Part shown: one piece after another, positions 511 through 51,169 of the stretch
Position numbering within the stretch: the first letter of the stretch is position 1
How the letters are laid out: each line of letters begins with the position of its first letter
DNA from: Mobula hypostoma
Lineage: Eukaryota
Assembly (NCBI RefSeq): GCF_963921235.1
Contig: NC_086097.1
Coordinates: forward strand, 60,948,001-61,012,000
DNA: 64,000 bases
Reading direction: 5' to 3'
Position numbers and translations under genes: made by a program
Notes under the pieces: model-generated
Database searches by the model: none
The model's input: the letters and a program-made list of their open reading frames with translations, nothing else
Told to the model about the DNA's origin: nothing

Positions 511-3269
511 ACCTTGTTCCCATTTTTAATCATCCTAGCTTTAATTTTGCTCTACGTCCTATTTGAATCTCATCCTCAATTTTGCATTCCACTGTTATTT
601 CTTTTTAAAAAAAATAACATAAAGGTAAACAATCAGCAATATTATTAAACGGGTCTACATTTGTTTCTTTTTATCAAGGATCACTAATTTTTATCATCTC
701 CTTGAGATTAAGAGGTAGAATATGCAAAACAAAAACAAAGTGAACAGACAAGATAATATGATCTTAACACAAAAGCTGCAGATGACAAAATGTACCGATT
801 ATTTTAATTCTATTTGCACCATTGTTAGATCTGTAATGATGCAGTGTCCTATATTCCCAATTTATTTTGCAGCCTGGGCAGAGTGAGCCAGACACCTCCC
901 TGTGCCATACATCAATACACTTCCATGAACAAAGTCTTTAGTTAGGTTGTCATCACATAACAAAATATTATATTAAAAGCACCTCAAAATTTGATGTGTT
1001 ATCTGTAGAAACAATAAATATTTTAGCAAATTACATTTATAGCAAACATATTGCAGCAATAACCTTAACACTTGAAGAATTTCTGCCCTAGAGTTTTGCA
1101 TTATGTATAATCTGTGAAGGATGTGGACGGCAAATTCTGGACATTAAAGGGAGAATGCTCATTCATATTCTGAAGCACACTTTGTCATCAACACCAAGGG
1201 CATTCACTGTACTGGAGCATCAGATTTCCATTGCACTGAAGTACTTTTTTAATCACACTGAATGTCAGGAAACAGATTTGATTAGAGTTTCTAAGCCAAA
1301 GTGGAAAAGTCACATCTGACTTCAAAGTTACATTATCATATGGCCATTGATGTTGAAATAAATTGTGAAGTTCTTCTGTTCCTCCTGTAATGATTAGGGT
1401 GTTACAGCTTGTAATCAGGTGTAAATTAATGAATTGAGGCCAAAATGCTTTAAAATGTATAACTTTTGACATTCATTTAAAGCATATAGAAATGTGAAGT
1501 ACAGTTTCTTGTGTATGTATTACCATTTAATGATATTTTGCTTCTGCCACCCAAATTAAAACTTCTTCACAATTTTTTTCCTATCTTCAATCATGAGAAT
1601 CATCAATCCTATCAAATGAAAAGTGTTGGCAATAGACAAGAAGGTAAAAAGTCAAAAGCTTTTATGAGAACAATAGCTAGATAGAGATATAAATTAGTGT
1701 CATCAGCAAAAACATGTTTTATTCAGCACCTTTTGTCAATAGATTTTAACAGTTCCATTAGAATTCGAAGAATATCTGAAGTGGGAAAGATGAAGCCTTG
1801 GAACAGAAAGTCTAGTTGAGCTCACACTTAGAATAAGATGTCAAAGTTCAACACTCACAGCAGATATAATTGGCTGGAGGATCATTAAGGAACTATTCTC
1901 TACTGGTGATCATTAGAGAAATTACAATGCATTTTGATGTATAGAAATTGGCCTAAATCACTCACCTACAAAGAAAGAAGTGGAGTTAAATTTCAGGTCA
2001 AAGATTCTTGATTGGAACTGTGAAACTGAAAAAAAATCAACTTAGCTTTAAGTTGCAGAGAGAATGGTGTGTTGGATAGGATCAAATGACTGCTATGCAG
2101 GAAGCTTTTATATTCTGCCCATAACTGTCTGAATTTCCTGCAGTTGCTTTGGTTTTCTCCCACATTCCAGAAACATATCTGGGTTCGGGTTAGTAAGTTG
2201 TGGGTAGCAAACTTGGCGCCAGAATTGTGACGACATTTGCAGGCTGCCTCCAGCACAGTCTCAGACTATGTTGGTAGCTAATGCAAAACAACACATCTCG
2301 CTATATGTTTCGATGTCCATGTGACAAATGAAACTAATCTTTACCTTTTGCCAAGTATGCCAAGGTGATTCTACTGTTAATGGTATCATTTGGTTGAATG
2401 ATAATGAGGGCAGGTAGAGAGGAAAAATAACAAACTAAAGGACATGTGAAGTACGGGCATGAAGTTGCTGAAACCAAAGAGATAATACTACAAATGTCCA
2501 ATGGACCAGACAGGGTCCGTGAAGAATCAAAGCTGTGTTAATATCACACAACCTTACAACATTAAGGATGTGCCCCAAAGGCTACAACATTCTCCAATGA
2601 AAGAAAAAGTTCTGTTCCTCGTTTAAGTTACATATTAGCACTCTGCAGGGGGCAACAGACAGATAGTCTGAAATGAGAAAACAATAGAGAATTAAAATGT
2701 CAATGGAAAGGTAGAGCTCTCCCTGCATATCAAATGGAAGTATTCTGCAAAGTGTTCATTCGAACTGGTGACCAGTGTGGTAAACTGGGTTGCCAGTTAA
2801 GTACCTTACCCCGAAAGGTATTGAACTTCTGGGTTACTGGAGCTGCACTTACTGAGGCAAATGGAAATTATTTCATCACTCTCCTAATCAAGGTATTTCG
2901 GTTGAAAGGACTTTGGAATGTCAGGGGGTGACTCATTCATTATAATGTATTTAGCCTCTGACCTGATTTTGTGGTAAAAAGTATTTTCATGACTGGGTTT
3001 ATTAAATCTCTCAATAAAAACACTCAGGATGTTGAAGTTGATGCCATTAATTGTCAGAGTAGTTTACTAGAATTTCTCAAGTGTAAACTTGAAAGACTGA
3101 AATGAATGTAAGACTGTGCTGGACCAATAGAACCTTCAGAAATCCATAAACACTGGCCAGTCCACGATATGTTCAGCACATCCTTCCATCCAGTCCAACT
3201 GCATGATGCATTGTTTCAGGAAACCTAGGAGATCCTGGACAAACCATTCTCTCCTATTCTCTGGGAGAA

Positions 3270-3545
3270 GCTATAGGGAATGGAACTGGAGCTGGTTAAG
3301 AGGGGAGCCAGAGTGGGGAATGGACAAAGAGATTACTAGAAGTTAGACTAATTGACGTTCATACTGCCTGGAGGCTAAACAGATAGAATATGATGTGTTG
3401 CTCCTCTAATTTGAGGGTGGCCATTGATTGTCAAGAGTAGTTTGCTAGACTTTCTCTTAAGTGTAAACACAATTGTAGAGGAGGCCAAGGGCCATCATGA
3501 CAGATTGGGAATAGGAAGTAGAATTAAAATGGGTGTCCACCATTC
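3270..3545 (-). mobile_element. Degenerate Penelope-like 3' ORF fragment
   Basis: Aligns by eye to 17010-17180 (gaagttagactaattgacgttcatac...gaatatgatgtgttgctcctctaatttgagggtggc...gtagaggaggcc). Confidence 0.55.
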
Positions 3546-7165: not shown

Positions 7166-8626
7166 AAGTAAATAACATAATATAAAATACATCATGCTCA
7201 GTACCTTGTTTCTCTTGAAATTAGTGTTTTCTGGTGTACAAAGTAATTACCGACTGCAGCATTGATGTCCATCAGTTTATCCTCCAAAAATTTGCAGATT
7301 TGGCCAAGGCCACTTTTGTTAAAATATCAGTATGTTTTCTTTTCTGGAGTTATGCAGCAAAACAGGGCCCACATCGAATTAAATGCATACCATCCATTTT
7401 AGTGGACTGGCACACACTTAGCTGTGCAGAAATCATGGTTGATTGGAGTACCGTGCAGATGCAACGGAAGTTTTCCCGGTGCAGGTCTGGCAAAGAGTTT
7501 TAAAATGCAGGAACTTTTTTGACCGAAATCCTTGATTGGAGTACTGCGCAGAACCAATAGAAGCGTTTCCGTGTAGGTCTGATGGAGTGCTTTAAAAGCC
7601 CAGTCTATAAAGGCGAGGTATCGCCTAGTGGAGCAGTTATTGTTGGAGTGGTCATCGTAGGAGTAGTCTGAGGCAGAGCAGAAAGGCTTTGCCTCAACAA
7701 GTCTTCGGCGAGAACAGGCAGAGGCAAGGTAAGTAGGTAAGTTCATTCCTTATTTCTTATTTAAATCTTGAGAGAATAGGGGTAGGTCTCCAGAGCTAGT
7801 ATTCTCTTCTGGGTGTCAGATATGGGATTTCTCGGAGACTTCCAGCTTCCCTGATGGCCACATCTGAACCAGGTGCATTAAGATGCAGTTCCTTAGAAAC
7901 CGTGTTAGGGAACTGGAGCTGCAGCTCAATGACTATCAGAAGAGGGAAAGGAGAACATCAGATAGCGGACAGCACTGCTGCAACCATCCTCCTCAACAAT
8001 AAGTATTCCATTTTGACTACTGTTGAGGGGGAGGGGAACATCCTACCTGGGGAAGCAACAGTGGAACAGCGGCCACGCCTCTGGCACTGAGTCTGGCCCT
8101 GTGGCTCAGAAGGGCAGGGAACTGAAGAGGATGGCTGCAGTAATAGGGGACTCTTTAGTCAGGGGGACAGATAGATGATTCTGCAGACGCGAAAAAGAAA
8201 CATGGATTCTAGCAAAAATGCCAGGGTCCGAGATGTTTCTGAATATGTCCATAATAGCCTGAAAAGGGAGGGTGAGCAGCCAGAAGTCGTGGTATATATT
8301 GGTAACAATGACATAGGTAGAAAAAGAGCGGAGGTCCTGAAAAAAGAATACAGGGAATTAGGAAGAAAGATGAGAAGCAGGACTTCAAGGGTAGTAATCT
8401 CAGGATTGCTGCCTGTTCAACACTAGAGTGAGGATAGAAATAGAATGAGGTGGCAGATAAATGTGTGGCTGAAGAATTGAAGCAAGGGGCAGGGTTTCAG
8501 ATTTCTGGATAACTGTGTTCTGTTCTGGGACAGGTGGGACCGTACAAAAGGGATGGGTTGTATTTGAATTTGAGGGGACCAATAGTCTTGTGGGCAGATT
8601 TACTAGAGCTGTTGGGAGTGGTTTAA

Positions 8627-9044
8627 CCCACGCAAACTGTTCATATTCTATACCTTCACAGTATGGTCCGGGTCAATTTTGACCCGGCCCAAGAATCCCC
8701 TCATAACAAGTGTTTCTACCAAATCTTGAACCACAGATCTATTTAGAATGCATAAATAGCCTCTCTGACATTAATAAATGGGTGATTAATCCTTAATTAA
8801 TGTTTCAGAGATCTAAAATCCATTTCAATAGATACGGGTCAAGTTTGACCCAAAACAGCCTCAATGTACAAAAATTTGTCGCACCTGCACAAAAGTATAA
8901 GATTTTAAAATATTTTCATTTTTGTGAATTTTGGGTCACTTTAGGAAAAGTCATCAAATTTCGGCTAAAAAATGGCATTTAGGGTGTTTTTACTGCTGTC
9001 AAATGTCAAAACGGGTCAAATTTGACCTGAACAGTATGCAAGGG
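8627..9044. mobile_element. piggyBac-type MITE, copy 1
   Basis: TTAA on both sides (8623-8626, 9045-9048), CCC...GGG ends, imperfect 17-bp TIR; second copy at 40826-41235. Confidence 0.85.
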
Positions 9045-14204: not shown

Positions 14205-15043
14205 CTGGAATGGAAAGCCTCATCCTGGGAGCAGATGCGGTGGAGACGGAGGAACTGGGAATAGGGAATGGCATTTTTGCATGTGGCGGGGTGGGAAGAG
14301 GTATAATCGAGGTAGTTATGAGAGTCAGTGGGCTTGTAGAAGATGTCAGTGGACAGTCTGTCTCCAGAGATGCAGACCGAGAGATCGAGAAGGGGGAGAG
14401 AAGTGTCCGAGATAGACCAAGTGAATTTGAGGGCTAGGTGGAAGTTTGAAGTAAAGTCGGTGAAATTGACGAGCTCAGCATGAGCCCCCATGCCACCCAC
14501 TTCAACTCTGCTTCCTATTCCTATTCGGATATGTCCATACATTTGTCCTCCTCTACTGCCATGATGAGGCTAAACTCAGGTTGGAGGAGCAACACCTCAT
14601 ATACCGTCTAGGTAGTCTCCAGCCCCTTGGTATGAACATAGAATTCTCCAACTTCCGGTAACTCCCTCCCCCTCCCTTCCCTATCCCTATTTCACTCTGC
14701 CCCCTCACCCAGCTGCCTATCACCTCCCTCATGGTTCTGCCTCCTTCTACTACCCATTGTGTTTTCCCCTATTCCTTCTCCACTTTTCCTGCCTATCACC
14801 TCCCTCACCCCTTGATCTTTCCCCTTTCTGGTTTTTTACCTGGAACCTACCAGCCTTCTCCTTCCCACCTTCCTCCCACCTTCTTTATAGGGCCTCTGCC
14901 CCTTCCCTTTTCAGTCTTGATGAATGGTTCCAGCCCGAGATGTTGACTGATCGTTTCCACGGATGCTGCCTGACCTGCTGAGTTCCTCCAGCGTGTTGTG
15001 AGTGTTGCTTTGACCCCAGCATCTGCAGAGTATTTTGTGTTTA
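14205..15043. mobile_element. Penelope-like element fragment with inverted 5' part
   Basis: 14205-14484 encodes an RT C-terminal piece on the minus strand (HAELVNF...QDEAFHSR). 14485-15043 is the GIY-YIG C-terminus, 3' UTR, degenerate hammerhead (14912-14950) and tail on the plus strand. Confidence 0.85.
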
Positions 15044-16676
15044 CTGTATAGCTCAGGATGGACTTTTATTCTCCATTGATTAGGAGACATTAAAGCGTGG
15101 GATATATGATAGATCCAGCAAAAGGGGAACTATGCAGCTACAGATAACATGTGAAATATTGATCACGAGATTATTGGTTATTAGCGGATGCAAAAGATAG
15201 AGTTAAATGTCAGTGAAGTGGAGCGGATGAAGAGAGTTATCCATGATCTTGTTGAATTGTAGAGTAGGCATAAAGGGCTGAATGGCTTACCCTTTCTCCC
15301 ACTCCCGCAATACCCTAGACTTGCCAGATCTCATTATAACTATAACAGGCATCAAGAAGCTTCTCGAGGACTTCCAGCCTAAGAAAGCACCAGGACCTGA
15401 TCAAATACCGGCTTTGATTCTAAAGAGTTATGCTTCCAGTCTAGCTCCCATTTTGCAAGAGATATTCCAGAAGTCTATTGATACTGGGACATTACTGGAC
15501 GATTCGTTGAAAGCAAATGTCGTTCCAATTTATAAGGGCGAGCATACAAATCTGGGAAATTACAGACCAGTTTCACTCACTTCCATCCCTTGTTAAATTC
15601 TTGAACATATTATTCACCGTCACATTATGGACCATCCGGACAGACACAATGCTCTTACTCACCAGCAACATGGATTCCGTCAGGGCAGATCTTGTGACAT
15701 GAAACTTGCAGGGTTGATCAACGACTTAGCAAAGATCCTTGACAATAGAAGCCAAACAGACTTGATCATACTCGACTTCAGTAAGGCATTTGACACGGTC
15801 CCCCACCAGAGGTTGCTACGTAAGCTTGAACATGTGGGCATTAACAACAGCCTTCTACATTGGTTAAACATGTTCCTCATCAACAGACAGCAACGTGTGC
15901 TTCTTGAGGGGCAGAGTCCCCTGAATCTCCAGTAACATCCAGAATGCCCCAGGGGTCTGTGTTGGGACCCTTACTTTTTCTCATTTAAATCAAAGACTTG
16001 CCAAATATAGTCAAGTCCAAAGTCAGACATTTTGCAGATGACTGCATAATCTACCATGAAATAAAAAATGACCAATGTGCTCAGCTGCTGTAAAACGATA
16101 TTGATTCATTATGTCAATGGGAGTCTCAATGGCAAATGTCCTTCATCTCATAAATGTTATGCGATGCATGTCAATCACAAAGTTAAACCAACCAACACGA
16201 CGTATAAAATGAATGGACAAATTCCTGAAACAGTCACCCACCACCCATACCTTGGTGCTGAAATTAGCAAGGATCTTAACTGGGCATGCCACATCAATCA
16301 GATTACAGCCAAAGCAAATAAAATGCTGGGTATCCTGAGAAGAAACCTCTGCTCATGTAGTAAATCCGTCAAGGACATGGCATACAAGACACTCTTCTGT
16401 CCAAAGCTTGAGTATTGCGCGGCCATGTGGGATCCCCATCAAGCTAACAATAAGAAGTCCATGAAAAAAATCCAACACTCGCTTTGTGTTAAATGATTAC
16501 AGCAGGAAATCCAGTGTCACCCACAGGCTCTCTAACTTTCAATGGGAACCACTCAAAAACCGACTTATTAAACTACGAAAACAACAGGAATACTGCAGAT
16601 GCTGGAAATTCAAGCAACATACATCAAAGTTTCTGGTGAACGCAGCAGGCCAAGCAGCATCTATAGGAAGAGGCGC

Positions 16677-16712
16677 AGTCGACGTTTCAGGCCGAGACCC
16701 TTCGTCAGGACT
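16677..16712 (-). ncRNA. Minimal type I hammerhead ribozyme in PLE 3' region
   Basis: Reverse complement reads AGUC-CUGACGA-AGGGUCUCGGCCU-GAAAC-GUC-GACU: complete core, stem I AGUC/GACU, short stem II, loopless palindromic stem III. Confidence 0.8.
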
Positions 16713-17008
16713 AACTGAAGGAAGAGTGAGTAAGGGATTTGAAAGCTGGAGGGGGAGGGGGAGATGCAAAACGATAGGAGAAGACAGGAGGTGGAGGGAT
16801 AGAGCCGAGAGCTGGACAGGTGATAGGCAAAAGGGGATACGAGAGGATCATGGGACAGGAGGTCCGGGAAGAAAGACAAGGTGGGGGGGTGACCCAGAGG
16901 ATGGGCAAGAGGTATATTCAGAGGGACAGAGGGAGAAAAAGGAGAGTGAGAGAAAGAATGTGTGCATAAAAATGAGTAACAGATGGGGTACGAGGGGGAG
17001 GTGGGGCC

Positions 17009-18290
17009 TTAGCGGAAGTTAGAGAAGTCAATGTTCATGCCATCAGGTTGGAGGCTACCCAGATGGAATATAAGGTGTTGTTCCTCCAACCTGAGTGTGG
17101 CTTCATCTTTACAGTAGAGGAGGCCGTGGATAGACATGTCAGAATGGGAATGGGATGTGGAATTAAAATGTGTGGCCACTGGGAGATCCTGCTTTCTCTG
17201 GCGGACAGAGCGTAGATGTTCAGCAAAGCGGTCTCCCAGTCTGCGTCGGGTCTCACCAATATATAAATGGCCACATCGGGAGCACCGGACACAGTATATC
17301 ACCCCAGTCGACTCACAGGTGAAGTGATGCCTCACCTGGAAGGACTGTTTGGGGCCCTGAATGGTGGTAAGGGAGGAAGTGTAAGGGCATGTGTAGCACT
17401 TGTTCCGCTTACACGGATAAGTGCCAGGAGGGAGATCAGTGGGGAGGGATGGGGGGGACGAATGGACAAGGGAGTTGTGTAGGGAGCGATCCCTGCGGAA
17501 TGCAGAGAGAGGGGGGGAGGGAAAGATGTGCTTAGTGGTGGGATCCCGTTGGAGGTGGCGGAAGTTACGGAGAATAATATGTTGGACCCGGAGGCTGGTG
17601 GGGTGATAGGTGAGGACCAGGGGAACCCTATTCCTAGTGGGGTGGTGGGAGGATGGAGTGAGAGCAGATGTACGTGAAATGGGGGAGATGCGTTTAAGAG
17701 CAGAGTTGATAGTGGAGGAAGGGAAGCCCCTTTCTTTAAAAAATGAAGACATCTCCCTCGTCCTAGAATGAAAAGCCTCATCCTGAGAGCAGATGCGGCA
17801 GAGACGGAGGAATTGCGAGAAGGGGATGGCGTTTTTGCAAGAGACAGGGTGAGAAGAGGAATAGTCCAGATAGCTGTGAGAGTCAGTAGGCTTATAGTAG
17901 ACATCAGTGGATAAGCTGTCTCCAGAGACAGAGACAGAAAGATCTAGAAAGGGGAGGGAGGTGTCGGAAATGGACCAGGTAAACTTGAGGGCAGGGTGAA
18001 AGTTGGAGGCAAAGTTAATAAAGTCAACGAGTTCTGCATGCGTGCAGGAAGCAGCGCCAATGCAGTCGTCGATGTAGCGAAGGAAAAGTGGGGGACAGAT
18101 ACCAGAATAGGCACAGAACATGGATTGTTCCACAAACCCAACAAAAAGGCAGGCATAGCTAGGACCCATACGGGTGCCCATAGCTACACCTTTAGTTTGG
18201 AGGAAATGGGAGGAGCAAAAGGAGAAATTATTAAGAGTAAGGACTAATTCCGCTCGACGGAGCAGAGTGGTGGTAGAGGGGAACTGATTA
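17009..18290 (-). pseudogene. 5'-truncated but uninterrupted PLE polyprotein frame: RT C-terminal half, Cys linker, GIY-YIG endonuclease
   Basis: ORF 17009-18181 (390 aa; frame open to the junction) has GVAMGTRMGP, LRYIDD, LPFLDL, TDVYYKPTD, CKRNKCYTC and VIYCVRCSRCGHLYIGET. The Cys-rich linker suggests the Neptune clade. Confidence 0.92.
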
Positions 18291-18291
18291 G

Positions 18292-19248
18292 GACACCTCC
18301 CTCCTCTTTCTAGATCTTTCTGTCTCTATCTCTGGAGACAGCTTATCCACTGATGTCTACTATAAGCCTACTGACTCTCACAGCTATCTGGACTATTCCT
18401 CTTCTCACCCTGTCTCTTGCAAAAACGCCATCCCCTTCTCGCAATTCCTCCGTCTCCACCGCATCTGCTCTCAGGATGAGGCTTTTCATTCTAGGACGAG
18501 GGAGATGTCTTCATTTTTTAAAGAAAGGGGCTTCCCTTCCTCCACTATCAACTCTGCTCTTAAACGCATCTCCCCCATTTCACGTACATCTGCTCTCACT
18601 CCATCCTCCCACCACCCCACTAGGAATAGGGTTCCCCTGGTCCTCACCTACCACCCCACCAGCCTCTGGGTCCAACATATTATTCTCCGTAACTTCCGCC
18701 ACCTCCAACGGGATCCCACCACTAAGCACATCTTTCCCTCCCCCCCTCTCTCTGCATTCCGCAGGGATCGCTCCCTACACAACTCCCTTGTCCATTCGTC
18801 CCCCCCATCCCTCCCCACTGATCTCCCTCCTGGCACTTATCTGTGTAAGCGGAACAAGTGCTACACATGCCCTTACACTTCCTCCCTTACCACCATTCAG
18901 GGCCCCAAACAGTCCTTCCAGGTGAGGCATCACTTCACCTGTGAGTCGACTGGGGTGATATACTGCGTCCGGTGCTCCCGATGTGGCCATTTATATATTG
19001 GTGAGACCCGACGCAGACTGGGAGACCGCTTTGCTGAACATCTATGCTCTGTCCGCCAGAGAAAGCAGGATCTCCCAGTGGCCACACATTTTAATTCCAC
19101 ATCCCATTCCCATTCTGAAATGTCTATCCACGGCCTCCTCTACTGTAAAGATGAAGCCACACTCAGGTTGGAGGAACAACACCTTATATTCCGTCTGGGT
19201 AGCCTCCAACTTGATGGCATGAACATTGACTTCTCTAACTTCCGCTAG
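18292..19248 (+). pseudogene. Second, shorter 5'-truncated PLE frame (RT thumb, linker, GIY-YIG)
   Basis: ORF 18505-19248 (247 aa) differs from the minus-strand copy at six residues. Confidence 0.92.
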
Positions 19249-19543
19249 GCCCCACCTCCCCCTCGTACCCCATCTGTTACTCATTTTCATGCACACGTTC
19301 TTTCTCTCACTCTCCTTTTTCCCCCTCTGTCCCTCTGAATATACCTCTTGCCCACCCCCTGGGTCACCCCCCCACCTTGTCTTTCTTTCCGGACCTCCTG
19401 TCCCATGATCCTCTCGTATCCCCTTTTGCCTATCACCTGTCCAGCTCTCGGCTCTATCCCTCCCCCTCCTGTCTTCTCCTATCATTTTGCATCTCCCCCT
19501 CCCCCTCCAGCTTTCAAATCCCTTACTCACTCTTCCTTCAGTT

Positions 19544-19579
19544 AGTCCTGACGAAGGGTCTCGGCCTGAAACGTCGACT
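19544..19579 (+). ncRNA. Minimal type I hammerhead ribozyme in PLE 3' region
   Basis: agtc ctgacga agggtctcggcct gaaacgtc gact; predicted cleavage after 19575. Confidence 0.8.
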
Positions 19580-21642
19580 GCGCCTCTTCCTATAGATGCT
19601 GCTTGGCCTGCTGCGTTCACCAGCAACTTTGATGTATGTTGTTTATTAAACTACGGTTAAATTTCATTTTCAAAGAAGTTCACAACATCACTCCAAACAT
19701 CCAAATTCGTCACAGGGTTAGTTCGACTCGACAGCAAGCTCGACCTCACATGTTGGAAACTCCTTCATTCAATAAGATTTGCTACCAGAACTCTCTCTAC
19801 CCAAGATCAACAAGAGTGGAATCTTCTGCTGCCAGACCTGCACAGTGTTTCTGACATTAATATTTTTAAAGATAGACTCAATCAAATCGATTTAGGGTAT
19901 CTAGTCAAAAAAGCTTATTTTACAATTTAACTCCCAGGCCGTTCACACTGACTGCGCATTATAACAGCCATCTGGAAGTGCTTACGTAGTACCAAGCAGA
20001 AGTGGAAGGTACTTGGAACTTAGAAAGAATAGAGGGCTATGGGTAAGCCTAGGTAGTTCTGAGGTAAGGACGTATTCAGCACAGCTTTGTGGGCCGAAGG
20101 GCCTGTATTGTGCTGTAAGTTTTCTGTGTTTCTATGTTTCTATTTCAAGGTGAATAGAAAATAAAAGCAAGGAGATAATGCTGAGTCTTTATAAGATACC
20201 TGTCATGCCCCACTTGGAGGATGGTCAACTGTTCTTGGGCCCTTTACCTCTGAAAGGATGTGTGTTGTCATTGGTAAGAGTCCAGAGGAGGTTCACAAGG
20301 ATGATTGCGAGATTGAAGGCGTTAACATATGAGGAGTGCTTTGCAGCTTTGGGCCTGTACTCACTGGAATTTAGAAGAATGTGTATGGATCTCTTTGTAA
20401 TCTACCGAATGTTGAAAGGACTAGATACGATGGATGCAGAGAGGATGTTTCCTATGGTGGAGTAGAACAAGAAGGCACAGCCTCAAAATTGAGGAGTGAC
20501 CTTTTAAAACAGAGGTAAAGAGGAATTTTTTTAGCCAGAGTAGTGAATCTGTGGAACACATATAACGATGCATGAGGAAACAGATGAGAGACGAATTTAC
20601 AAAATTCATTCTTTTCAACTTAGAAGTGCTCTTTGATACTACTGATGGGATGCGGGTGAGGGTTTTGTGCAGTGACAGCTGGAAAACTCTACAGCTAAGC
20701 AGGAAAATCTGCCAGAAAGCAGCTGGATGGTGTCTGACTCCTGCAACAATCGCCTTGCCATGGAGCAACACTGCAAAGACATCCATAATGTTAAGTAACG
20801 TGCCGAGGTGAAATGACTAAAGGCATATGAAGGGCTTTCATCTTATTGATACATACAACCTCTCTCTCACAGACACAAAGGAGCAAATACAAAGAGAAAC
20901 ACACACAGTAGGTACAGTTTGTTTCAGGGATAGGAGGGAGGAATCAGGTCTGTACAAACTGTGTGGAGTTATCCACACTGAGCCAGACAGATAGGCAGAG
21001 AGATTACAAAAGGGGCATTCAGCTATGGAGAAGACAAAAACTGTCAGGCAGCTGCCTTCCACGACATGATTCCTCAGACTCCTTCACAGAGGGTATACAA
21101 GGGCCTGGAGAGTCTGCTTCTCAGAACGAAAGGAAGAAGTGCAGCAGGAGGAGCTGCAGGAAGTGAAGCAGGTGGAGATGGAAGATGAAGAGGCTGGTGA
21201 AAGTTTCCACACTGTCATTGAGCTTGACACCCACTTCAGAGGATCAATAAATGGTAATGTGAGGGAGCAAGGTACGACTTTAGAGGGCAAGAGATATGTG
21301 GGAATTAAGCACCATGAGGCTATGGTCTGACTTGAAATCAAGGGGGAAAAAGGTATAGGGACTGAGAGAAGGGAATCAAAACATTGCTCCTGTCTTGGAG
21401 AATCAATGACGTGTCATGACTAAAATGCCTTGTTTATATAGCTTATGCTAGGTCAGTCTGTTAAAGCACAGAGATGTTTGAAGGAGACCATCTCTACAGC
21501 AGAGCCAAGTTCAATGTTGAATGTAAACTTATTATCTAATTGTGTATACAGTACTTTGCCATATACTACCTTGAGAATGAGGTTGCCAATGGAGCCTCTT
21601 TGGAGACTAAGCAGTTCCTGGCAAAGTCCCAATACTCACCTC

Positions 21643-21802
21643 AACATGCTGGAGGAACTCAGCAGGTCAGGCAGCATCCGTGGAAAAGATCAGTCCGAAA
21701 CGTCGACCGATCTTTTCCACGGATGCTGCCCAACCTGCTAAGTTCCTCCAGTGTGTTGTGAGTGTTGCTTTGACCCAGCATCTGCAGATTATTTTGTGTT
21801 TA
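21643..21802. mobile_element. 160-bp fold-back PLE terminus insertion
   Basis: 21643-21695 pairs with ~21705-21757, followed by the full PLE tail; 14-bp TSD ccaatactcacctc (21629-21642, 21803-21816); same subfamily tail as 14950-15043. Confidence 0.85.
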
Positions 21803-31425: not shown

Positions 31426-31825
31426 TAAATTCTGCCATTGGAAGCAGTTTGTGTATTCTATAAATGAATAAATAAACAAGCAAACAAACAAACATATAAA
31501 GTATGGTTATACAGTTTATGGTTTTCACTGGTCATTCTTCTTTATGTATGGAAATACTTACAGATTCTTTGAGCTCAATCCTGGCAATCACCTCCAAGAT
31601 TTACAGCATCAAAGCAATGCATTAGAAAAAGGTCCTTTTACTTAGGGTATTATTTTCAGGCCATTATGGTGTAGGAAAGTTCTTATAACTTCCTTTATAA
31701 AGTAAATATTTCCTGAGTAATAATTATAATTATAGGATATGAATATTAATTATAAGGTTACATAATTCAAAGCATATGGTTAGAAAAAGATATTGAATCT
31801 GAAAATTAGAAAGGAGATATTTCCT

Positions 31826-31973
31826 CACTCTTCCTTCAGTTAGTCCTGACGAAGGGTCTCGGCCTGAAACGTCGACTGCGCCTCTTCCTATAGATGCTGC
31901 CTGGCCTGCTGCGTTCACCAGCAACTTTGATGTATGTTGCTTGAATTTCCAGCATCTGCAGAATTCCTGTTGT
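31826..31973 (+). mobile_element. ~150-bp PLE terminus (hammerhead + tail)
   Basis: Near-identical to 19527-19641 plus the full tail; flanked by tatttcct(c/t)act (31818-31829, 31974-31985). Confidence 0.9.
31842..31877 (+). ncRNA. Minimal type I hammerhead ribozyme
   Basis: Identical to 19544-19579. Confidence 0.8.
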
Positions 31974-33013
31974 TATTTCCTTACTTGTCAGCTTTGAGCA
32001 TAATTATTCCTAAATCCATTGCAAAATATTACATTGTACCCATAACTGTTGTAATAGATTGAAATGTATGAACAGTATGCAAAATAAGTACCTCAGGTAA
32101 CTCAGTACATGTGACAATAGTAAAACAATTTACAATTTACATAGTGGGAATGCTTCACATTTCCAATGATCCATTAAAATACAAAAGTCCAATTAGATAT
32201 AGCAGAAGAAGTTCCTCTTCTCACTCCTAACGAGTGATTTTTATGTATTTTCTACCTTATGGGTAAAGCTGACACATGGACATCTGTAAAAGTGAAATCC
32301 ATTCTTTACCTGGGCATACCTGAAGTGTAAGGTGAACGCATCTACTTTAGTCTTTGATAGTATCTGTGAACTTGGTGGAACAAAGAGTCTGAGTCCATAC
32401 TGTATGACTCCATGCTCTAAGGAATTCAAAAGTTCAAAATTTACAACAAAGCATAACAGATTCCAGTATCATTTGATCCTTGCAATTTCATGAGAATAAA
32501 GTCAGTACTTCAAAGTGCTTCTCTTGTCTATGGAAGTGGAGTTAAATATGCAAATTCAGATATGGTTAGTGGTACCCTGTCCTTCCACGTGGTGCAATAT
32601 TAAGTTCTCTGTTGACAGCTTCAATAGAAAACCAATGATATGATATGATGTTAGTGTTATTTAGAACCAACTATTGTCAAAATGTGAGTTTGAAAAGCTA
32701 TTTACAGGGATGGGTCATTATTTTTTCCACCCTATGATACAATTTTGAAGCATAATTTACAATTAAATTAAAGCTTAATCTTGACCCTCACTTCAGTTTC
32801 TGTAAAGTGAGTAACCTATTAATTACAAGCTGTGCTTTCTGAATTACTGACCTACTTGCTAACATACTTGTTGATCGCTTAGCCCACTCAATAACTTCAC
32901 TTTTAAAAGATACTACAGATTTCTTAACTGGGACCAAGAGCCATGTTGAAACAAGGAAAATTGATGCAATAGAATTTGTTGAACCACTGGCTGGATCTTT
33001 CTCTGATGTTATT

Positions 33014-40825: not shown

Positions 40826-41235
40826 CCCTTACATACAGTGGGTCAAATTTGACCCATTTTGACATTTGACAGCAGTAAAAACACCCTAAATGCCATTTTT
40901 TAGCCAAAATTTGATGACTTTTCCTAAAGTGACCCAAAATGCACAAAAATGAAAATATTTTAAAATGTTATACTTTTGTACAGGTGCTACAAATTTTTGT
41001 ACATTGAGGCTGTTCTGGGTCAAATTTGACCCGTATTTATTGAAATGGGCTTTAGATCTCTGAAACATTAATTAAGGATTAATCACCCATTTATTAATGT
41101 CAGATAGGCTATTTATACATTCTAAATAGATCAGTGGTTCAAAATTTGGTATAGACACTTGTTATGAGAGGATTCTTGGGCCGGGTCAAAATTGACCATA
41201 CTGTGAAGGTATAGAATATGAACAGGTTGCTTGGG
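40826..41235. mobile_element. piggyBac-type MITE, copy 2 (opposite orientation)
   Basis: TTAA flanks (40822-40825, 41236-41239); reverse complement of 8627-9044. Confidence 0.85.
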
Positions 41236-42908
41236 TTAAAGATGAACTGCACAGAGTACAAGACAGATATGTTCCCGTCAGAAGGAAGGACAATGATGGC
41301 AAGGTAAAAGAACCTTGAATATTGAGGGGTGTGATAAATTCAAGAAGTAAAAAAGAAAAGTATGTAAAGCTTAGGAAGCAAAAATCAAACAGAGCCCTTG
41401 AGGATTATAAAGTAGCCAGAAAAGAATTTAAGAAGAGAATTAGGAAAGCCAGTAGTGACTTTGTAAAGTAGGATTAAAGCGAATCCCAAAGCTTTCTATA
41501 CATACATCAAAAGTAAGAGGATAAATAGGGAGAGGGTAGATCACTCAAGGATAAAGGGGGAAGATTTGCTGTATTGCAGAGGATACAGGAGTGATCCTAA
41601 ATGAGTACATTACATTAGCATTTACCAAGCAGTGGGACATGGAGGTTAGGGAGATCAGTGCTGTGCATATTAATATGCTAAGGAATTTTGAGGTGAAGGA
41701 GGAGGTAGTGTTGGGTCTTTTAAAGAGCATTATAGTGGATGTCCCCAGGGCCTGATGGGATATACCCTAGTTATTGAGTGATGAATAAGAAAGACTGCTG
41801 GGGTCTCGACCTCTACCTTGGTGTCCTGTCTATCTATAGGCATGGTCCCCGAGTTCTGGTGAGTAGCTGATGTTGTTCCATTATTCAAGAAGGGAACCAG
41901 GGTTAATCCTAGAAACTATAGAATGGTGAATCTCTCGTCAGTGTTAGGAAGTTAATGGTGAGAATTCTCAGGGATAGGATTCATGAACATTTAGAAAGCC
42001 ATTGCCTAATTAGGGAGAGCCAGTATGGCTTTGTGTGGGGCAAGTCAGGTCTTAGTAACTTGATTGCGTTTTTTGATGAGGCAATGAGGGTAATTAGTGA
42101 AGATAGACATCTAGATGTTGTCTACATGGATTTGAGTAGTGTGTTTGACAAGGGCCCTCATGGGAGGCTCATCCAGAAGATTAAGATGCATGGGATCAAT
42201 GGTGAATTCAGTATTTGGATTCAAAAGTAGCTTGCCGATAGAAGACAGAGGGTAGTGGTCGAAAGGACTTATTCTAGCTGGACATTTGTGATTAATGGTG
42301 TTCCACTGGAATCTGTACTGAGATCCCTGCAGTTTGTGATGTATATAAATGATCTGGATGAAAATGTAGATAGGTGGGTTAGTAAGTTTGCAGATGATAT
42401 GATGATTGGTGGTGTTGTAGATAACGTACAAGACTGGCAAAGAGTACAATGGGATATAGAACAGTTGCAGATATGGGCAGTGAAATGGCAGATGAAATTT
42501 AATCCGACCAAATATGAAGTATTTATGGACAAGACCATTTACAGTGTTGATAAGTAGAGGGATCTTGAAGTCCAAGCTCATAGCTCCTTTTAAGTGGCTA
42601 CACAAGTTGATATAGTGTTGAAGGCATGTAGCATGCTGGCCTTTATTGGTCGAGGCGTTGAGTTCAGAAGTCAGAGAGCTGTGTTGCAACTTTATAAAAC
42701 TCTAGTTATGCCTCAACTGGAAGCATAGAGGTCTGGTCGCCCCATTATAGGCAGGATGCCGATGCTTTGGAGAAGTTGCAGAAGAAGTTTACCAGGACGT
42801 TGCCCGGATTACAGAGCAAGTACTATGATGAGAGGTTGGACAAACTTTTTTTCCCTCTGGAGTGGCAGAGGTTAAGGTTTATAAGATTATGGGAGGCACA
42901 GATAGAGT

Positions 42909-46149: not shown

Positions 46150-48938
46150 CAGTGGCATGCAAAAGTCTGGACACGCCGGTCAAAATTTATGTTACTGTGA
46201 ATAGCTAAGCGAGTAAAAGATGACCTGATTTCCAAAAGGCATAAAGTTAAAGATGACACATTTCTTTCATATTTTAAGCAAGATTACTTTTTTTATTTCC
46301 ATCTTTTACATTTTCCAAATAACAAAAAAGGAAGAGGGCCCGAAGCAAAAGATGGGCACCCTGCATGGTCAGTACTTAGTAACACATCCTTTGGCAAGTG
46401 TCACAGCTTGTAAACGCTTTCTGTAGCCAGCTGAGAGTCCTTCAATTCTTGTTTGGGGAAATTTCGCCCATTCTTCTTCGCAAAAGGCTTCTGGTTCTGT
46501 AAGATTGTTGGGCCGTCTTGCATGCACTGCTTTTTTAAGGTCGATCCACAGAATTTCGACGATGTTTAGGTCAGGGGACTGTGAGGTCCATGGCAAATCC
46601 TTCAGCTTGCACCTCTTGAGGTAGTCCATTGTGGATTTTGAGGTGTCATTATCCTGCTATAGAAGCCATCCTCTTTTCATCTTCAGCTTTTTTTACAGAC
46701 GGTGTGATGTTTGCTTCCAGAATTTGCTATTATTTAATTGAATTCATTCTTCCCTCTACCAGTGAAATGTTCCCCGTGCCACTGGCTGCAACACAAGCCC
46801 AAAGCATGATTGATCCACCCCCCCTCCCCCCGCCCATGCTTATCAGTTGGAGAGGTGTTCTTTTCATGAAATTCTTCACCCTTTTTTCTCCGAACATACC
46901 TTTGCTCATTGCGGCCAAAAAGTTCTATTTTAATTTCATCAGTCCACAGGACTTGCTTCCAAAATGCATTAAGCTTGTTTAGATGTTCCTTTGCAAACTT
47001 CCAATGCTGAATTTTGTGGTGAGGATGCAGGAAAGGTTTCTTCTGATGACTCTTCCATGAAGGTCATATTTGTGCAGGTGTCGCTGCACAGTAGAACAGG
47101 GCACCACCACTCCAGAGTCTGCTAAATCTTCCTGAAGGTCTTTTGCAGTCAAATGGAGGTTTTGATTTGCCTTTCTAGCAATCCTATGAGCAGTTTTCTC
47201 AGAAAGTTTTCTTGGTCTTCCGGACCTCAACTTGACCTCCACCATTCCTGTTAACTGCCATTTCTTCATTACATTATGAACTGAGGAAACGGCTACCTGA
47301 AAACTCTTTGCTATCTTCTTATAGCCTTCTCCTGCTTTGTGGGCATTATTTATTTTAAATTTCAGAGTGCTAGGCATCTGCTTAGAGGAGCCCACGGCTG
47401 CTGATTGTTGGGACAAGATTTGAGGAGTCAGGGTATTTATAAGGCTTTGAAATTTGCATCACCTTGTCATGGTCCTGTCCGTGAAGTCCGCATTCCAGTT
47501 CACGGTCCAGTCCGTGGACTCAGGACTCTGGGTCTTCCAGCTGTCCCTCGTTTTGGTTGAGTTAATCATAGGCACCTGATTCCCATCTTGGGGCTTAGAA
47601 TGTAAGTTGCCTTGGGGTCAAGAGTGGGCTGCTGATTTGTCTTGTCCAGATCCCCTGGGAGCAGCCTGCCGGTGGAAGGCTAGAGTGGCCACTTGCCCCT
47701 TTTAGGCCGCATTGGGGAACTGTCCCCTCATGGAGCCTTGCTGTCGGTAGTCGGAGCCGGCTTTGCGGTATGGATTCGGCCATTTCCCGGGCCAGCTGAA
47801 TAACTGTCAGCCACTCCGAGCTAGGTAGGGATCTGGCTGTCTCCATAGCCAGCCTAGGTTGCTGGCCGTAACTGTGACTCGGAGCAACCCCGATACAGAG
47901 ATGGAACTGTCTGTCATTCTTTGGTGTTTGTCTCTTCTTGTCCTTGCCTCCATGGGGTAAGTCAGGCCGTTCTGCCATTGCCCTGCAGGGGAGATCTGTC
48001 TTGTCTTGTCCTCGCCTCCGTGGGGGTAAGTCAGCCCATTCTGCTGTTGCCCTGCGGTGGGACCTGTCTTGTCTTGTCTTTGCCCCTGTTGGGTAAGTCC
48101 AGCTGTTCTGGTATTACCCGACAGATGAACCTGTCCCACGTTGGTGTGGAGATAAAGTTGAGCCCCGGCTTGTCTAAGGATAAGTCCCGGCTCTATGTTG
48201 ATGTACAGTCTGTCTCTGAGCTCCAGCCTCTGAGTTATCAGCCCTGCATTCCAAGACCCCAGCTTCTAGCCTCAAGACCCAAGACTCCAGTCTGTTTCCA
48301 AGCTCAGGACCCAAGAACCCAGCCTGTCTTCAAGCTCAAAACCAAAGACCCCAGCCTCCAGTCCTGTAGTCATGTCATGTCATGTCCTTGCCTGGTTCTG
48401 GAGCCAGAGCCCGAGGCAAGACCCAGGTTCTGGGTCCTTGTCCAGTCTCTGGCTCAGAGCCAAAGCCCAGGCTCCTAGTTCATAGTTCCTTGTTCAGTTT
48501 CCCTGTTTCTTGTCCATGTCCTAGCCCAAGTCTGCGTTCTTGTCCCTGCTCCTTGTCTGTATCCTGTCACGTCCCTACTCTAGTCAAGTCCTGTTTCTTG
48601 TACTTCAGTGTCTGTGTCTTGCACTTGAGTCCACTAACAGCACCCACCTTGTGACACAATTGGCCTTTCCTAACGATGATTGTGAACAAGCCATTGTCAT
48701 AACAAGCTAATTAAGGTCTGAGACCTTGGTAAAAGTTACTGAGAGCTCAAATCTCTTGGACTGCCCAAACTTTTGCATGGTGCTCTTCTCCTTTTTTCAC
48801 TCTAAAATTGTACAAAACAAAAATAATACACTAATGTTGAAAAGAATGTTTCATCTTTAACTTTATGACTTTTGGAGATCAGTTCATCTGCTACTCACTT
48901 AACTATTCACAGTAACAGAAATTTTGACCAGTGCCACG
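46150..48938 (-). mobile_element. Tc1 transposon 1 (frameshifted transposase), interrupted by an LTR
   Basis: TA-cagtggca start, ~200-bp TIRs; GEGYKKIAK, SGRPRK, GGSIMLWAC, SQSPDLNIVEILW and TKY in ORFs 46369-47416. Confidence 0.95.
47465..48656. mobile_element. Solo LTR-like insertion with internal ~60-bp repeats
   Basis: tgtca...tgaca ends; cleanly interrupts Tc1; TSD imperfect (cacct/caatt); three tandem units at ~47925-48115. Confidence 0.7.
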
Positions 48939-48942
48939 TATA

Positions 48943-50542
48943 TAGTGCTGCTAGAAACTTTGTGAACCCTGTAGATTTTTTTCTATTTCTGCATAAATAT
49001 GATCTAAAATGTGATCATATCTTCATACATCCTAAAACTAGATGAAGAGAATCCAATTAATTAAATAATACAAAAACATTACACTTTTTCATTTATTTAT
49101 TGAGAAAAATTATCCATTATTACATGTATTTCTTAGAAAAAGTATGTGAACCTCTGGAGTAATGCCTTCTACTAAAGTTATTTGGAGTCAGGTGTTGCAA
49201 CCATTGAAATGAGATTGGAGGTGTGGGTTCTAGAGGTGCCTTGCCCTATAAAAATGACACAGAGCCAAAGCCTGCTCTACTCAAGAAAGATCTGTTTATG
49301 TTCACCATGCCTGAATCAAAACAACTTTCCGAGGACATTAGAAGAAGAATTGTAGAGATATATGAAACTGGAAAAAGCTACAAAGCATTTCTAAAAATCT
49401 GAGTGTTCATCAGTTTACAGTGAGAGAAATTGCCTACAAATGGAGGAAACTCAGTACTGTTGCTACTCTCCCTAGGAGCGGATATCCTGCAAAGATCACA
49501 CCAACAGCACAACATACAGTGTTGAAGGAGGTGAAAAAGAACCCAAGGGTAACTGTAAAAGACCTGCAGAAATCTCTAGAACTTGCAAAAGTCTCTGAAT
49601 ATGTGTCCACTATAAGAAAAACGCTGAACAAGAATGGTGTGCATGGTAGGACACAAGAGTGGAAACCACTGCTCTCCAAAAAAAACATTGCTGCCCATCT
49701 CAAGTTTGCAAAAAAACACCTGGATGTTTTTAACACCTCTGGGACAATATTCTGTGGACGGATGAGACAAAAGTTGTTTTATTTTGGCAGAAATGCACAC
49801 TGCTTATGTTTGAAGGAAAAAGGGCACTGCACACCAACACCTTATCCCAACTGTGAAAAATGTTGGAAGGAGCATCATGGTTTGGGGCTGCTTTACTGTC
49901 TCAGGGACTGGATAGCTTGCAATCATTGAGGGAGAAATTAATTCAAAATTGTATCAGGACATTTTACAGCAGAATGTCTGGGTAGCAGTCCATCACCTGA
50001 AGCTTAATAGAAGTTGGATAATGCAACAAGACAATAATCCAAAAGACAAGAGTAAATCAACAAAAGAATAGTTTAAAATGAAGAGAATTTTTGTTTCTGA
50101 ATAGCTGAGTCAAAGTCCTGACCTTAATCCTACAGAAATTGTGAGGAAGAACCTGAAGCAAGCAGTTCATACAAGGAAGCTCACCAACATCCCAAAATTG
50201 AAGAAGTTTTGTAAGGAGGAATGGCCTAAAATTCCTCTAAGTTGATGTGCAGGACTGATCAATAGCTATTGGAAATGTTTGGTTGAAGTTAGTGCTGTAC
50301 AAAGGGGTCACATAATTTACTGAAATCAAAGGCTCACATACACTTTCTAACAAATACACGTAATATTGGATTGTTTTTCTCAATAAATAAATAAACAAGA
50401 ATAATCTTTTTGTGTTATTTATTTAATTGGGTTCTCTTTATTAAGTTTTCGGACTTATATGAAGATCTGATCACATTTTAGGTCATATTTATGCAGAAAT
50501 AGAGAAAATTCTACAGGGTTCAGAAACTTCCTAGCACCACTG
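48943..50542 (+). mobile_element. Tc1 transposon 2 (1.6 kb, full length, degraded)
   Basis: ~200-bp TIRs ending ctagcaccactg-TA; transposase from ATG 49307 to ~50323 (LPRSGYPAKITP, QQDNNPK, SQSPDLNP). Confidence 0.95.
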
Positions 50543-51169
50543 TAAAATGAGAAAATGGAACCTGTTCAGTCCACAACCTCATTACTCCTCTTCTTGAATT
50601 ACTTCAAAGAGCGGAGTTTAATAACTGAGATTTGCTAATTGTTGCAACCCTGGATTTCTGCTAGGTTTTTGAATTCACTTTGTAATAACCCACCATGCTA
50701 GCAACTTAATTAAATTCCCTGTGCCTTACAGAGACATATGGTTAATAGACTGGTTTTTATCACACTTCTTGCCTAAATGATCTATTCAGAAGAATGTTTG
50801 CACAGTATCCTGGCCAGTTATTGTTTAATAACTTTATAAAATCATAATGCATACACAAAATGTTCCTGGTTTATTTTCAGAAAAAATCCCTTAATCTATT
50901 GGTATGTTGAGACTTATAGACTGAATATTTTGGACTGTCTCTGCCACTATTATGCCCTTTAAAAGCAAAGCACACTTGAGTCCTTCACCTAATAGGATCA
51001 CAATCTGAACACACAAATGGATACAGAGAGGTAGGTTATTCCCATACTCATCCCCCAGGTATCTAAAAACATATTGTGAATTGTTTTGTTTATAGGAACA
51101 TCTATCAATACACTTTTTGACAATTTTGCTTTGGGGTATTAGGAAGGTGTCTAATCTGGTTGGAAAGGC

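What the first reader, a model, noticed from the sequence alone, without database searches (positions are those of the whole stretch)
16565..19655. Single insertion made of two inverted Penelope-like copies: 1.35-kb palindrome with a hammerhead at each end
Seen: 16615-17965 and 18292-19641 are inverted repeats with about 22 differences by eye (~98%) around a 326-bp loop. Both outer ends are element 3' ends, and a perfect 13-bp TSD flanks the unit. Removing it restores the host LINE frame (NRLIKLR-LNFIFK). Known: Penelope-like elements can occur with inverted terminal repeats. Inference: both staggered target ends primed reverse transcription from an RNA 3' region, and the two cDNAs were joined head-to-head. 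Any read-through transcript would form a 1.35-kb dsRNA hairpin bounded by ribozyme sequence, a possible silencing trigger. Both coding frames are still stop-free, so the family is young.
Basis: partly seen in the sequence, partly recalled or inferred. Interest (0 to 1): 0.8.

Follow-up and report, generated by a model that had tools for sequence, protein, structure and literature searches.

The report
Back-to-back Penelope-like retrotransposon insertion
This is one dead insertion of a Penelope-like jumping gene made of two back-to-back partial copies, a layout already in print and common in this genome; its one-sided "tail" and a rare mutation shared by both halves suggest that both cut DNA strands likely started copying RNA from the same source gene.

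Summary
In detail: two inverted, 5'-truncated copies of a Neptune-like Penelope-like element (1,353 aligned bases, 22 substitutions, 1 indel, 326-bp loop) sit in one 12-13-bp target duplication. Five of five uninterrupted relatives of the host LINE show the empty site. The layout is published (inverted truncated copy, duplication, 30-40-bp tail on one end) and ordinary here: 16 of 46 consecutive family loci have it, and roughly 950 such palindromes are extrapolated genome-wide. All 62 clear inverted insertions examined pair a tailed with a tail-less end (1 more ambiguous). The tail is on the shorter arm in 36 of 46, which simple fold-back cannot give. Arms usually share a source: subfamily agrees in 34 of 35, and this pair shares a variant seen at 12 of 8,628 sites. 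Best reading: both nicks prime at the two known start sites, and the cDNAs are end-joined. One RNA versus two is unresolved. The hammerheads are real motifs but would be buried in the hairpin; silencing is untested. The scan had already noted this layout and inference on other DNA of this genome.

The parts
15282..16564 (+). Host LINE, decayed RT region, 5' of the insertion
   Evidence: RVT_1 hit at 15597-15932; about 90% identical to 39 other copies
16565..16577 (+). Left copy of the target-site duplication (13 bp; 12 certain)
16578..16611 (-). PLE 3' tail (~34 nt), present on this arm only
16612..17965 (-). Left arm, paired part (3' UTR/pLTR, GIY-YIG, CX4CxxC linker, RT thumb)
16677..16712 (-). 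Minimal type-I hammerhead motif of the left arm
   Evidence: core and 4-bp stem I by pattern; no Rfam match
17009..18291 (-). Open, 5'-truncated ORF fragment (RT C-terminal half with YIDD, linker, GIY-YIG)
17268..17268 (-). Rare variant shared with the right arm (partner 18989)
17966..18291 (-). 326-bp loop: the part of the left copy that reaches further 5' than the right copy
18291..18292 (.). Head-to-head junction, 1 nt shared, unique in the genome
18292..19644 (+). Right arm, tail-less 3' end; open 318-codon fragment at 18292-19248
18989..18989 (+). Rare variant shared with the left arm
19544..19579 (+). Minimal hammerhead motif of the right arm, identical to the left
19643..19655 (+). Right copy of the target-site duplication
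19656..19930 (+). Host LINE 3' remainder, continuous with the left flank in uninterrupted copies

Best explanation
This is a single dead-on-arrival insertion of a Neptune-like Penelope-like retrotransposon, two 5'-truncated copies back to back inside one target duplication, likely made when both ends of a staggered cut primed reverse transcription on RNA from one source copy. Inferred steps: the GIY-YIG endonuclease nicks both strands about 13 bp apart. One 3'-OH primes at the upstream (tail-less) start site and the other at the downstream (tailed) site about 34 nt away. Both cDNAs stop early, are joined at their 3' ends by end joining with little or no microhomology, and host repair fills in. 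Whether one RNA molecule is copied twice or two RNAs of the same locus are used is not resolved.
For: Shown here: single duplication and empty site; unique junction. 37 of 37 inverted insertions among 78 similarity-seeded loci have exactly one tailed and one tail-less end. So do 16 of 16 clear cases among 46 consecutive loci, 6 of 6 further pairs and 3 of 3 bystander insertions (read; L128 ambiguous). Non-inverted copies use either end (11 tailed, 29 tail-less of 40). The two end classes cluster at reference positions 3474-3482 and 3510-3521. The tail-less arm reaches further 5' in 36 of 46 two-piece insertions, so the tail on the short arm cannot be copied from the long arm. Arms share source: subfamily A/B agrees in 34 of 35 (Fisher p 1e-6). 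Rare non-CpG variants shared: 10 versus 0.15 in permutations, and 9 versus 0.23 in a second set of 19 pairs, 18 of them picked without regard to the window's 3' ends. The window's arms share a variant at 12 exact sites versus 8,616 for the common allele. Junction overlap of 2 nt or more in 11 of 30 against 13% by chance. From papers: the anole PLE protein cuts and extends both strands, starts at two internal RNA sites that bound the tail, and is predicted to be a dimer (PMC11167929).
Against: In this very insertion the tailed arm is the longer and contains the whole right arm, so fold-back is not excluded for it alone. Its junction shares only 1 nt (chance level). Its same-source evidence is one site, and the 8 solo carriers of that variant lie on unrelated backgrounds, so it is a recurrent change, not a lineage marker; short conversion or about 1-2% coincidence (my estimate) could give it. 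Arms often disagree too: 69 common non-CpG alleles on one arm only against 63 shared sites in 56 pairs, and 8 of 37 pairs differ in linked blocks. Equal arm lengths are only weakly enriched (6 of 46 within 50 nt, expected 2.2, p 0.017; not significant in either subset). No read spanning the junction was seen.
Confidence: 0.72

Rival explanations
1. Fold-back or self-priming: one arm is made first (cDNA, or an antisense RNA as proposed for Adineta elements), folds back, and is copied to give the second arm; the tail difference comes from endonuclease resolution.
For: Proposed in PMC3846280 (Discussion); tail ascribed to EN resolution in PMC8557442. In the window the right arm lies wholly within the left arm's span and shares a rare variant. 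A few insertions are near-perfect hairpins (L003, L028, L033).
Against: The tail is on the shorter arm in 36 of 46. Loops are usually hundreds of bases. Arms differ in linked subfamily blocks in 8 of 37. The window's right arm ends at the same site as solo tail-less copies.
Confidence: 0.12
2. Dual priming, but on two RNAs drawn from any source copies, with arm similarity produced later by gene conversion between the arms.
For: Mosaic pairs that share rare alleles yet differ at common ones (L014, L017, L021, L074, L087, L090, L134).
Against: Common alleles are shared far more (63 sites against 69 one-arm) than private ones (10 against 196). Conversion spread over time strong enough for the first should share about four times more private changes (my arithmetic, not a call). 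Conversion right at insertion is not excluded.
Confidence: 0.12
3. Two independent insertions, the second landing at the 5' end of the first.
For: The family is dense (8,616 exact hits of one 23-mer); nested insertions occur (L004).
Against: One duplication flanks the whole unit and none flanks the right arm alone. The same layout with one duplication in 31 of 37. 11 heads-in pairs and no tails-in pair within 5 kb among the first 100 hits.
Confidence: 0.02
4. Assembly artefact (fold-back chimera of a long read).
For: No read or contig bridging the junction was seen (inconclusive).
Against: Arms differ at 23 places and in the tail; flanks rejoin exactly around a duplication; the same rule holds at dozens of loci.
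Confidence: 0.01

Closest known systems
Inverted-pLTR insertions of endonuclease-bearing Penelope-like elements (Pen2a_Av of Adineta vaga, PMC3846280; general scheme in PMC8557442 Fig. 2 legend)
   Same: 5'-truncated copy inverted against the 5' end of another, whole unit in one target duplication, 30-40-bp tail on one end only, hammerhead in the terminal repeat.
   Different: Here the inverted arm is 1.35-1.7 kb and reaches into the ORF rather than being a ~200-bp pLTR; there is no palindrome at the junction; duplications are mostly 13-15 bp rather than 8-10.
Poseidon element of Anolis carolinensis, PAc (PMC11167929)
   Same: Two 3' end classes about 34 nt apart downstream of a hammerhead; both target strands used.
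   Different: PAc is Penelope/Poseidon clade; this element has the CX2-5CxxC linker of Neptune/Nematis. The parts of that paper read do not report which start site each strand of one insertion uses; they found no difference in start site between strands in vitro.
L1 twin priming (recalled, no paper read)
   Same: Both target nicks prime on element RNA and the cDNAs are joined by microhomology, giving an inversion inside one duplication.
   Different: In L1 the second primer anneals far inside the RNA and the two parts barely overlap; here both start within ~34 nt of each other and the same kilobase is copied twice.
Minimal hammerheads of metazoan PLEs (PMC4209133)
   Same: Type-I core, short stem I, palindromic stub for helix III; pairs on opposite strands close together were already reported.
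   Different: The stem II closing pair is G-U (or A-U in a shifted register) instead of the conserved G10.1-C11.1, family-wide (92 of 118 segments carry the identical motif).

Membership tests
EN+ Penelope-like elements | RT followed by a C-terminal GIY-YIG endonuclease in one ORF | tested here: met
   YIDD at 18065-18076 and GIY-YIG (E 4e-4 left, below the Pfam cut-off; 8.5e-5 right, above it) in one frame; 885-codon frame in L014
EN+ Penelope-like elements | CCHH motif within the endonuclease | tested here: met
   CxxC inside the GIY-YIG core and downstream histidines; matched by pattern, not by alignment to references
EN+ Penelope-like elements | Partial tandems forming pLTRs | tested here: met
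   L014, L061, L074, L095, L116, L136; not in the window copy itself
EN+ Penelope-like elements | Inverted 5'-truncated copy and optional 30-40-bp tail at one end | tested here: met
EN+ Penelope-like elements | Hammerhead motif in the terminal repeat | tested here: met
   motif by pattern; no Rfam match; not the minimum-energy fold
EN+ Penelope-like elements | RT groups with PLE/telomerase RTs in a tree | not tested
   no reference set was fetched
Neptune/Nematis clades | CX2-5CxxC linker between RT and EN, absent in Penelope/Poseidon (PMC8557442) | tested here: met
   CX4CxxC at 17387-17413
Neptune clade proper | RT phylogeny separating Neptune from Nematis | not tested
   hence called Neptune-like only
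Active hammerhead ribozyme | Self-cleavage, in a dimer for minimal motifs | not testable with these tools
   needs an assay; the inverted copy is antisense and cannot serve as the dimer partner (inference)
L1-type twin-priming inversion | Inverted and direct parts nearly non-overlapping (recalled) | tested here: not met
   arms overlap by 1,353 bases

The most novel reading that the evidence does not exclude
A PLE dimer copies one RNA molecule twice in single file: one subunit primes from one nick at the tail-less site and runs ahead, the other primes from the opposite nick 34 nt behind and displaces the first cDNA. Every two-armed insertion is therefore tailed on exactly one end, the tail-less arm is usually longer, and the arms share template-specific variants. 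This would be a distinct integration mechanism that seeds about a thousand long palindromes in one genome.
Probability: 0.4. Interest if true: 0.6.

Novelty: new member of a known kind. Interest (0 to 1): 0.3.

Why it matters
The locus itself is an ordinary dead copy. The family-wide counts matter modestly: how PLEs make inverted repeats and the tail is stated as open in PMC8557442 and PMC11167929. A strict one-tail rule, a tail usually on the shorter arm, and same-source arms narrow the options and suggest a direct test in the existing in vitro system. About 950 palindromes with arms of 660 bp or more (extrapolated) could also be a source of dsRNA or instability, which was not tested.

Tried and rejected
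Reads: no public run held half the words of the left flank (best share 0.28), and no RNA holder was listed. Laying contigs on the junction and on the left boundary showed only family and LINE relatives; no listed piece bridged either place, and the tables were cut. This is no evidence either way. Rfam found nothing in the window, and single-strand folding did not give a hammerhead shape or unusual stability (z 0.0-0.9). The shared variant as a source-lineage marker: rejected, the other carriers are on unrelated backgrounds. The unit as a copy of an earlier inverted unit: rejected, the junction is unique. Left-arm alleles that looked common (reference 3300, 3320, 3460, 3500) are not linked in other copies and are probably enriched by the similarity search. 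Age correlation between arms was weak (rho 0.31, p 0.07). Recurrent 5' ends were only slightly above a jitter null (25 of 122 against 16.5, p 0.0125). Whether the locus lies in a host transcript was not examined. No tree was built and no protein database search was run.
Full report
Observation. The arms align over 1,353 columns (16612-17965 minus, 18292-19644 plus) with 22 substitutions and one indel, around a 326-bp loop. The longest repeat at the two outer boundaries is 13 bp (16565-16577, 19643-19655). Excising the insert restores the host LINE frame. Five of five other copies of that LINE carry the motif once and continue into the right flank, so the empty site is shown independently. The junction is unique in the 3.5-Gb genome; the one near match is an unrelated junction in an older copy.

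Identity. The arms encode the C-terminal part of an RT, a CX4CxxC linker and a GIY-YIG domain. A near full-length tandem copy, L014, gave the reference unit of 3,513 bases; the arms cover positions 1804-3513 and 2131-3480. The linker is the mark of Neptune/Nematis rather than Penelope/Poseidon (PMC8557442, passages). No tree was built. Copies are about 1% from the majority base, and one 23-mer occurs exactly 8,616 times: a young, large family. Open frames add little, since 78% of simulated frames stay open at this divergence (substitutions only). Both arms lack the 5' part of the ORF.

How common the layout is. I fetched 77 loci seeded by similarity to either arm (39 from the 40 scored of 417 candidates, 38 from the 40 scored of 1,855). 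With the window, 37 of 78 are inverted with both 3' ends outward, 40 are not, and 1 has an inverted inner piece only. A duplication was found in 31 of 37 inverted and 23 of 40 other loci, against 3 of 145 and 2 of 157 mismatched controls; exact lengths are mostly 13-15 bp. The first batch is biased to tail-less seeds, so I also took the first 53 hits of a mid-element pattern on contig 1, which are 46 consecutive loci. 16 are clearly inverted, 1 is ambiguous, and 2 have inverted inner pieces only. Among the first 100 hits there are 11 heads-in pairs and no tails-in pair within 5 kb. Scaled to 8,616 hits this is about 950 palindromes with arms of at least ~660 bp, an extrapolation from 41 Mb. 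Two of those 11 have paired arms as long as the window's.

The tail rule. All 37 seeded inverted insertions have one tailed and one tail-less end. So do 16 of 16 consecutive ones, 6 further pairs and 3 bystanders (read by eye): 62 of 62, with L128 ambiguous. In L085, L088 and L092 the tail-less match ends 20-100 nt short of the usual site. Solo copies use either end. The ends cluster at two sites, 3474-3482 and 3510-3521, as for the two RT start sites that bound the tail in the anole element (PMC11167929, parts 1-2 of 4 read). In 36 of 46 two-piece insertions the tail-less arm reaches further 5'. A second arm copied from the first cannot gain a tail the first lacks, so fold-back or antisense self-priming (PMC3846280, Discussion) fails as the general route. 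The window is one of the 10 cases with the tail on the longer arm, so it alone does not exclude fold-back.

One source or two. Arms agree in subfamily in 34 of 35. At diagnostic non-CpG sites 35 are shared and 24 are on one arm, against 6.3 and 70 in permutations; rare shared variants number 10 against 0.15; arm divergence is 1.4% against 2.0% (38 pairs including L061, which was dropped later). A second set of 19 pairs (18 picked without regard to 3'-end similarity, plus L085, picked for the shared variant) gives 32 shared (permuted 8.5), 9 rare shared (0.23; 2 of them from L085), and 1.5% against 2.1%. The window's arms share one variant found at 12 exact sites genome-wide; four of the 12 are the two arms of this and of one other inverted insertion. 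Against a clean single template: 69 common alleles lie on one arm only versus 63 shared sites in 56 pairs, 8 of 37 pairs differ in linked blocks, and several are mosaics. Private changes are shared at only 10 sites against 196 one-arm, which by my arithmetic is too few for conversion spread over time, so sharing was set near insertion. Template switching, tandem RNAs with unlike units, or ectopic conversion could explain the mosaics; I could not separate them.

Junction. Of 30 simple junctions, 17 share at least 1 nt, 11 at least 2 (13% by chance), 8 at least 3 (4%), 3 are blunt and 10 have inserted bases (the two longest overlaps may be inflated by alignment). This fits end joining. The window's junction shares 1 nt.

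Hammerheads and silencing. The motif is identical in both arms and matches the minimal type described in PMC4209133 (parts 1-2 of 4 read), which needs a second sense copy and cleaves weakly. Rfam does not detect it. A read-through transcript would form the hairpin, but it would hold one sense motif, paired with its antisense copy; an active ribozyme there is unlikely (inference). Expression, small RNAs and editing were not testable: no RNA holder was listed, and the laid contigs were uninformative.

Comparison with print. An inverted truncated copy, a flanking duplication and a tail on one end are described in PMC3846280 (passages) and PMC8557442 (passages). I found no paper stating the strict one-tail pairing or same-source arms in five searches (listings only beyond the four papers named). 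The library lacks most subscription papers, including the 2005-2006 PLE reviews these papers cite, and I read no supplements, so this is weak. L1 twin priming is recalled, not read. The scan's own notes already report the same layout, tail rule and inference elsewhere in this genome; I reached the reading before that look-up, and they are not independent support.

Verdict. A real, single, ordinary insertion of a known kind. Dual priming from one source is the best reading (0.72). The bolder one-RNA-copied-twice model is about 0.4. Interest 0.3.

Noticed in passing
window 31821-31974: Solo 154-bp tailed 3' fragment of the same family (98%), including the hammerhead motif.
   Followed up: partly
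window 21642-21776: Mini inverted unit of an older relative (54-nt arms, 9-nt loop); its short arm appears to start right after the hammerhead cut motif.
   Followed up: no
L029 and L137, reference position 3411: Short inverted arms begin at the predicted hammerhead cut site; not tested against chance.
   Followed up: no
window 14205-15016: Older PLE relative (76-79%) also arranged head to head, pieces overlapping by about 6 nt at 14477-14482.
   Followed up: no
L100 5907-5935 and L102 8230-8274 (oriented coordinates): Inverted arms of only 29 and 45 nt, essentially the tail alone, inside a duplication.
   Followed up: partly
window 19544-19579 and family: Hammerhead stem II closes with G-U (or shifted A-U) instead of the conserved G-C in this young family; older relatives in the window appear to keep C.
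   Followed up: partly
L014, L017, L021, L074, L087, L090, L134: Arms share rare alleles yet differ at interleaved common alleles: mosaic haplotypes of unknown cause.
   Followed up: partly
L019, L029, L033, L060, L066, L093, L100, L111: Extra short element pieces at the centre of inverted insertions, suggesting template jumps before the final join.
   Followed up: no
window 8622-9027 and 40841-41240; 48838-50544: Other inverted repeats (95% over 357 nt at 32 kb distance; an 83-90% cluster), not examined.
   Followed up: no
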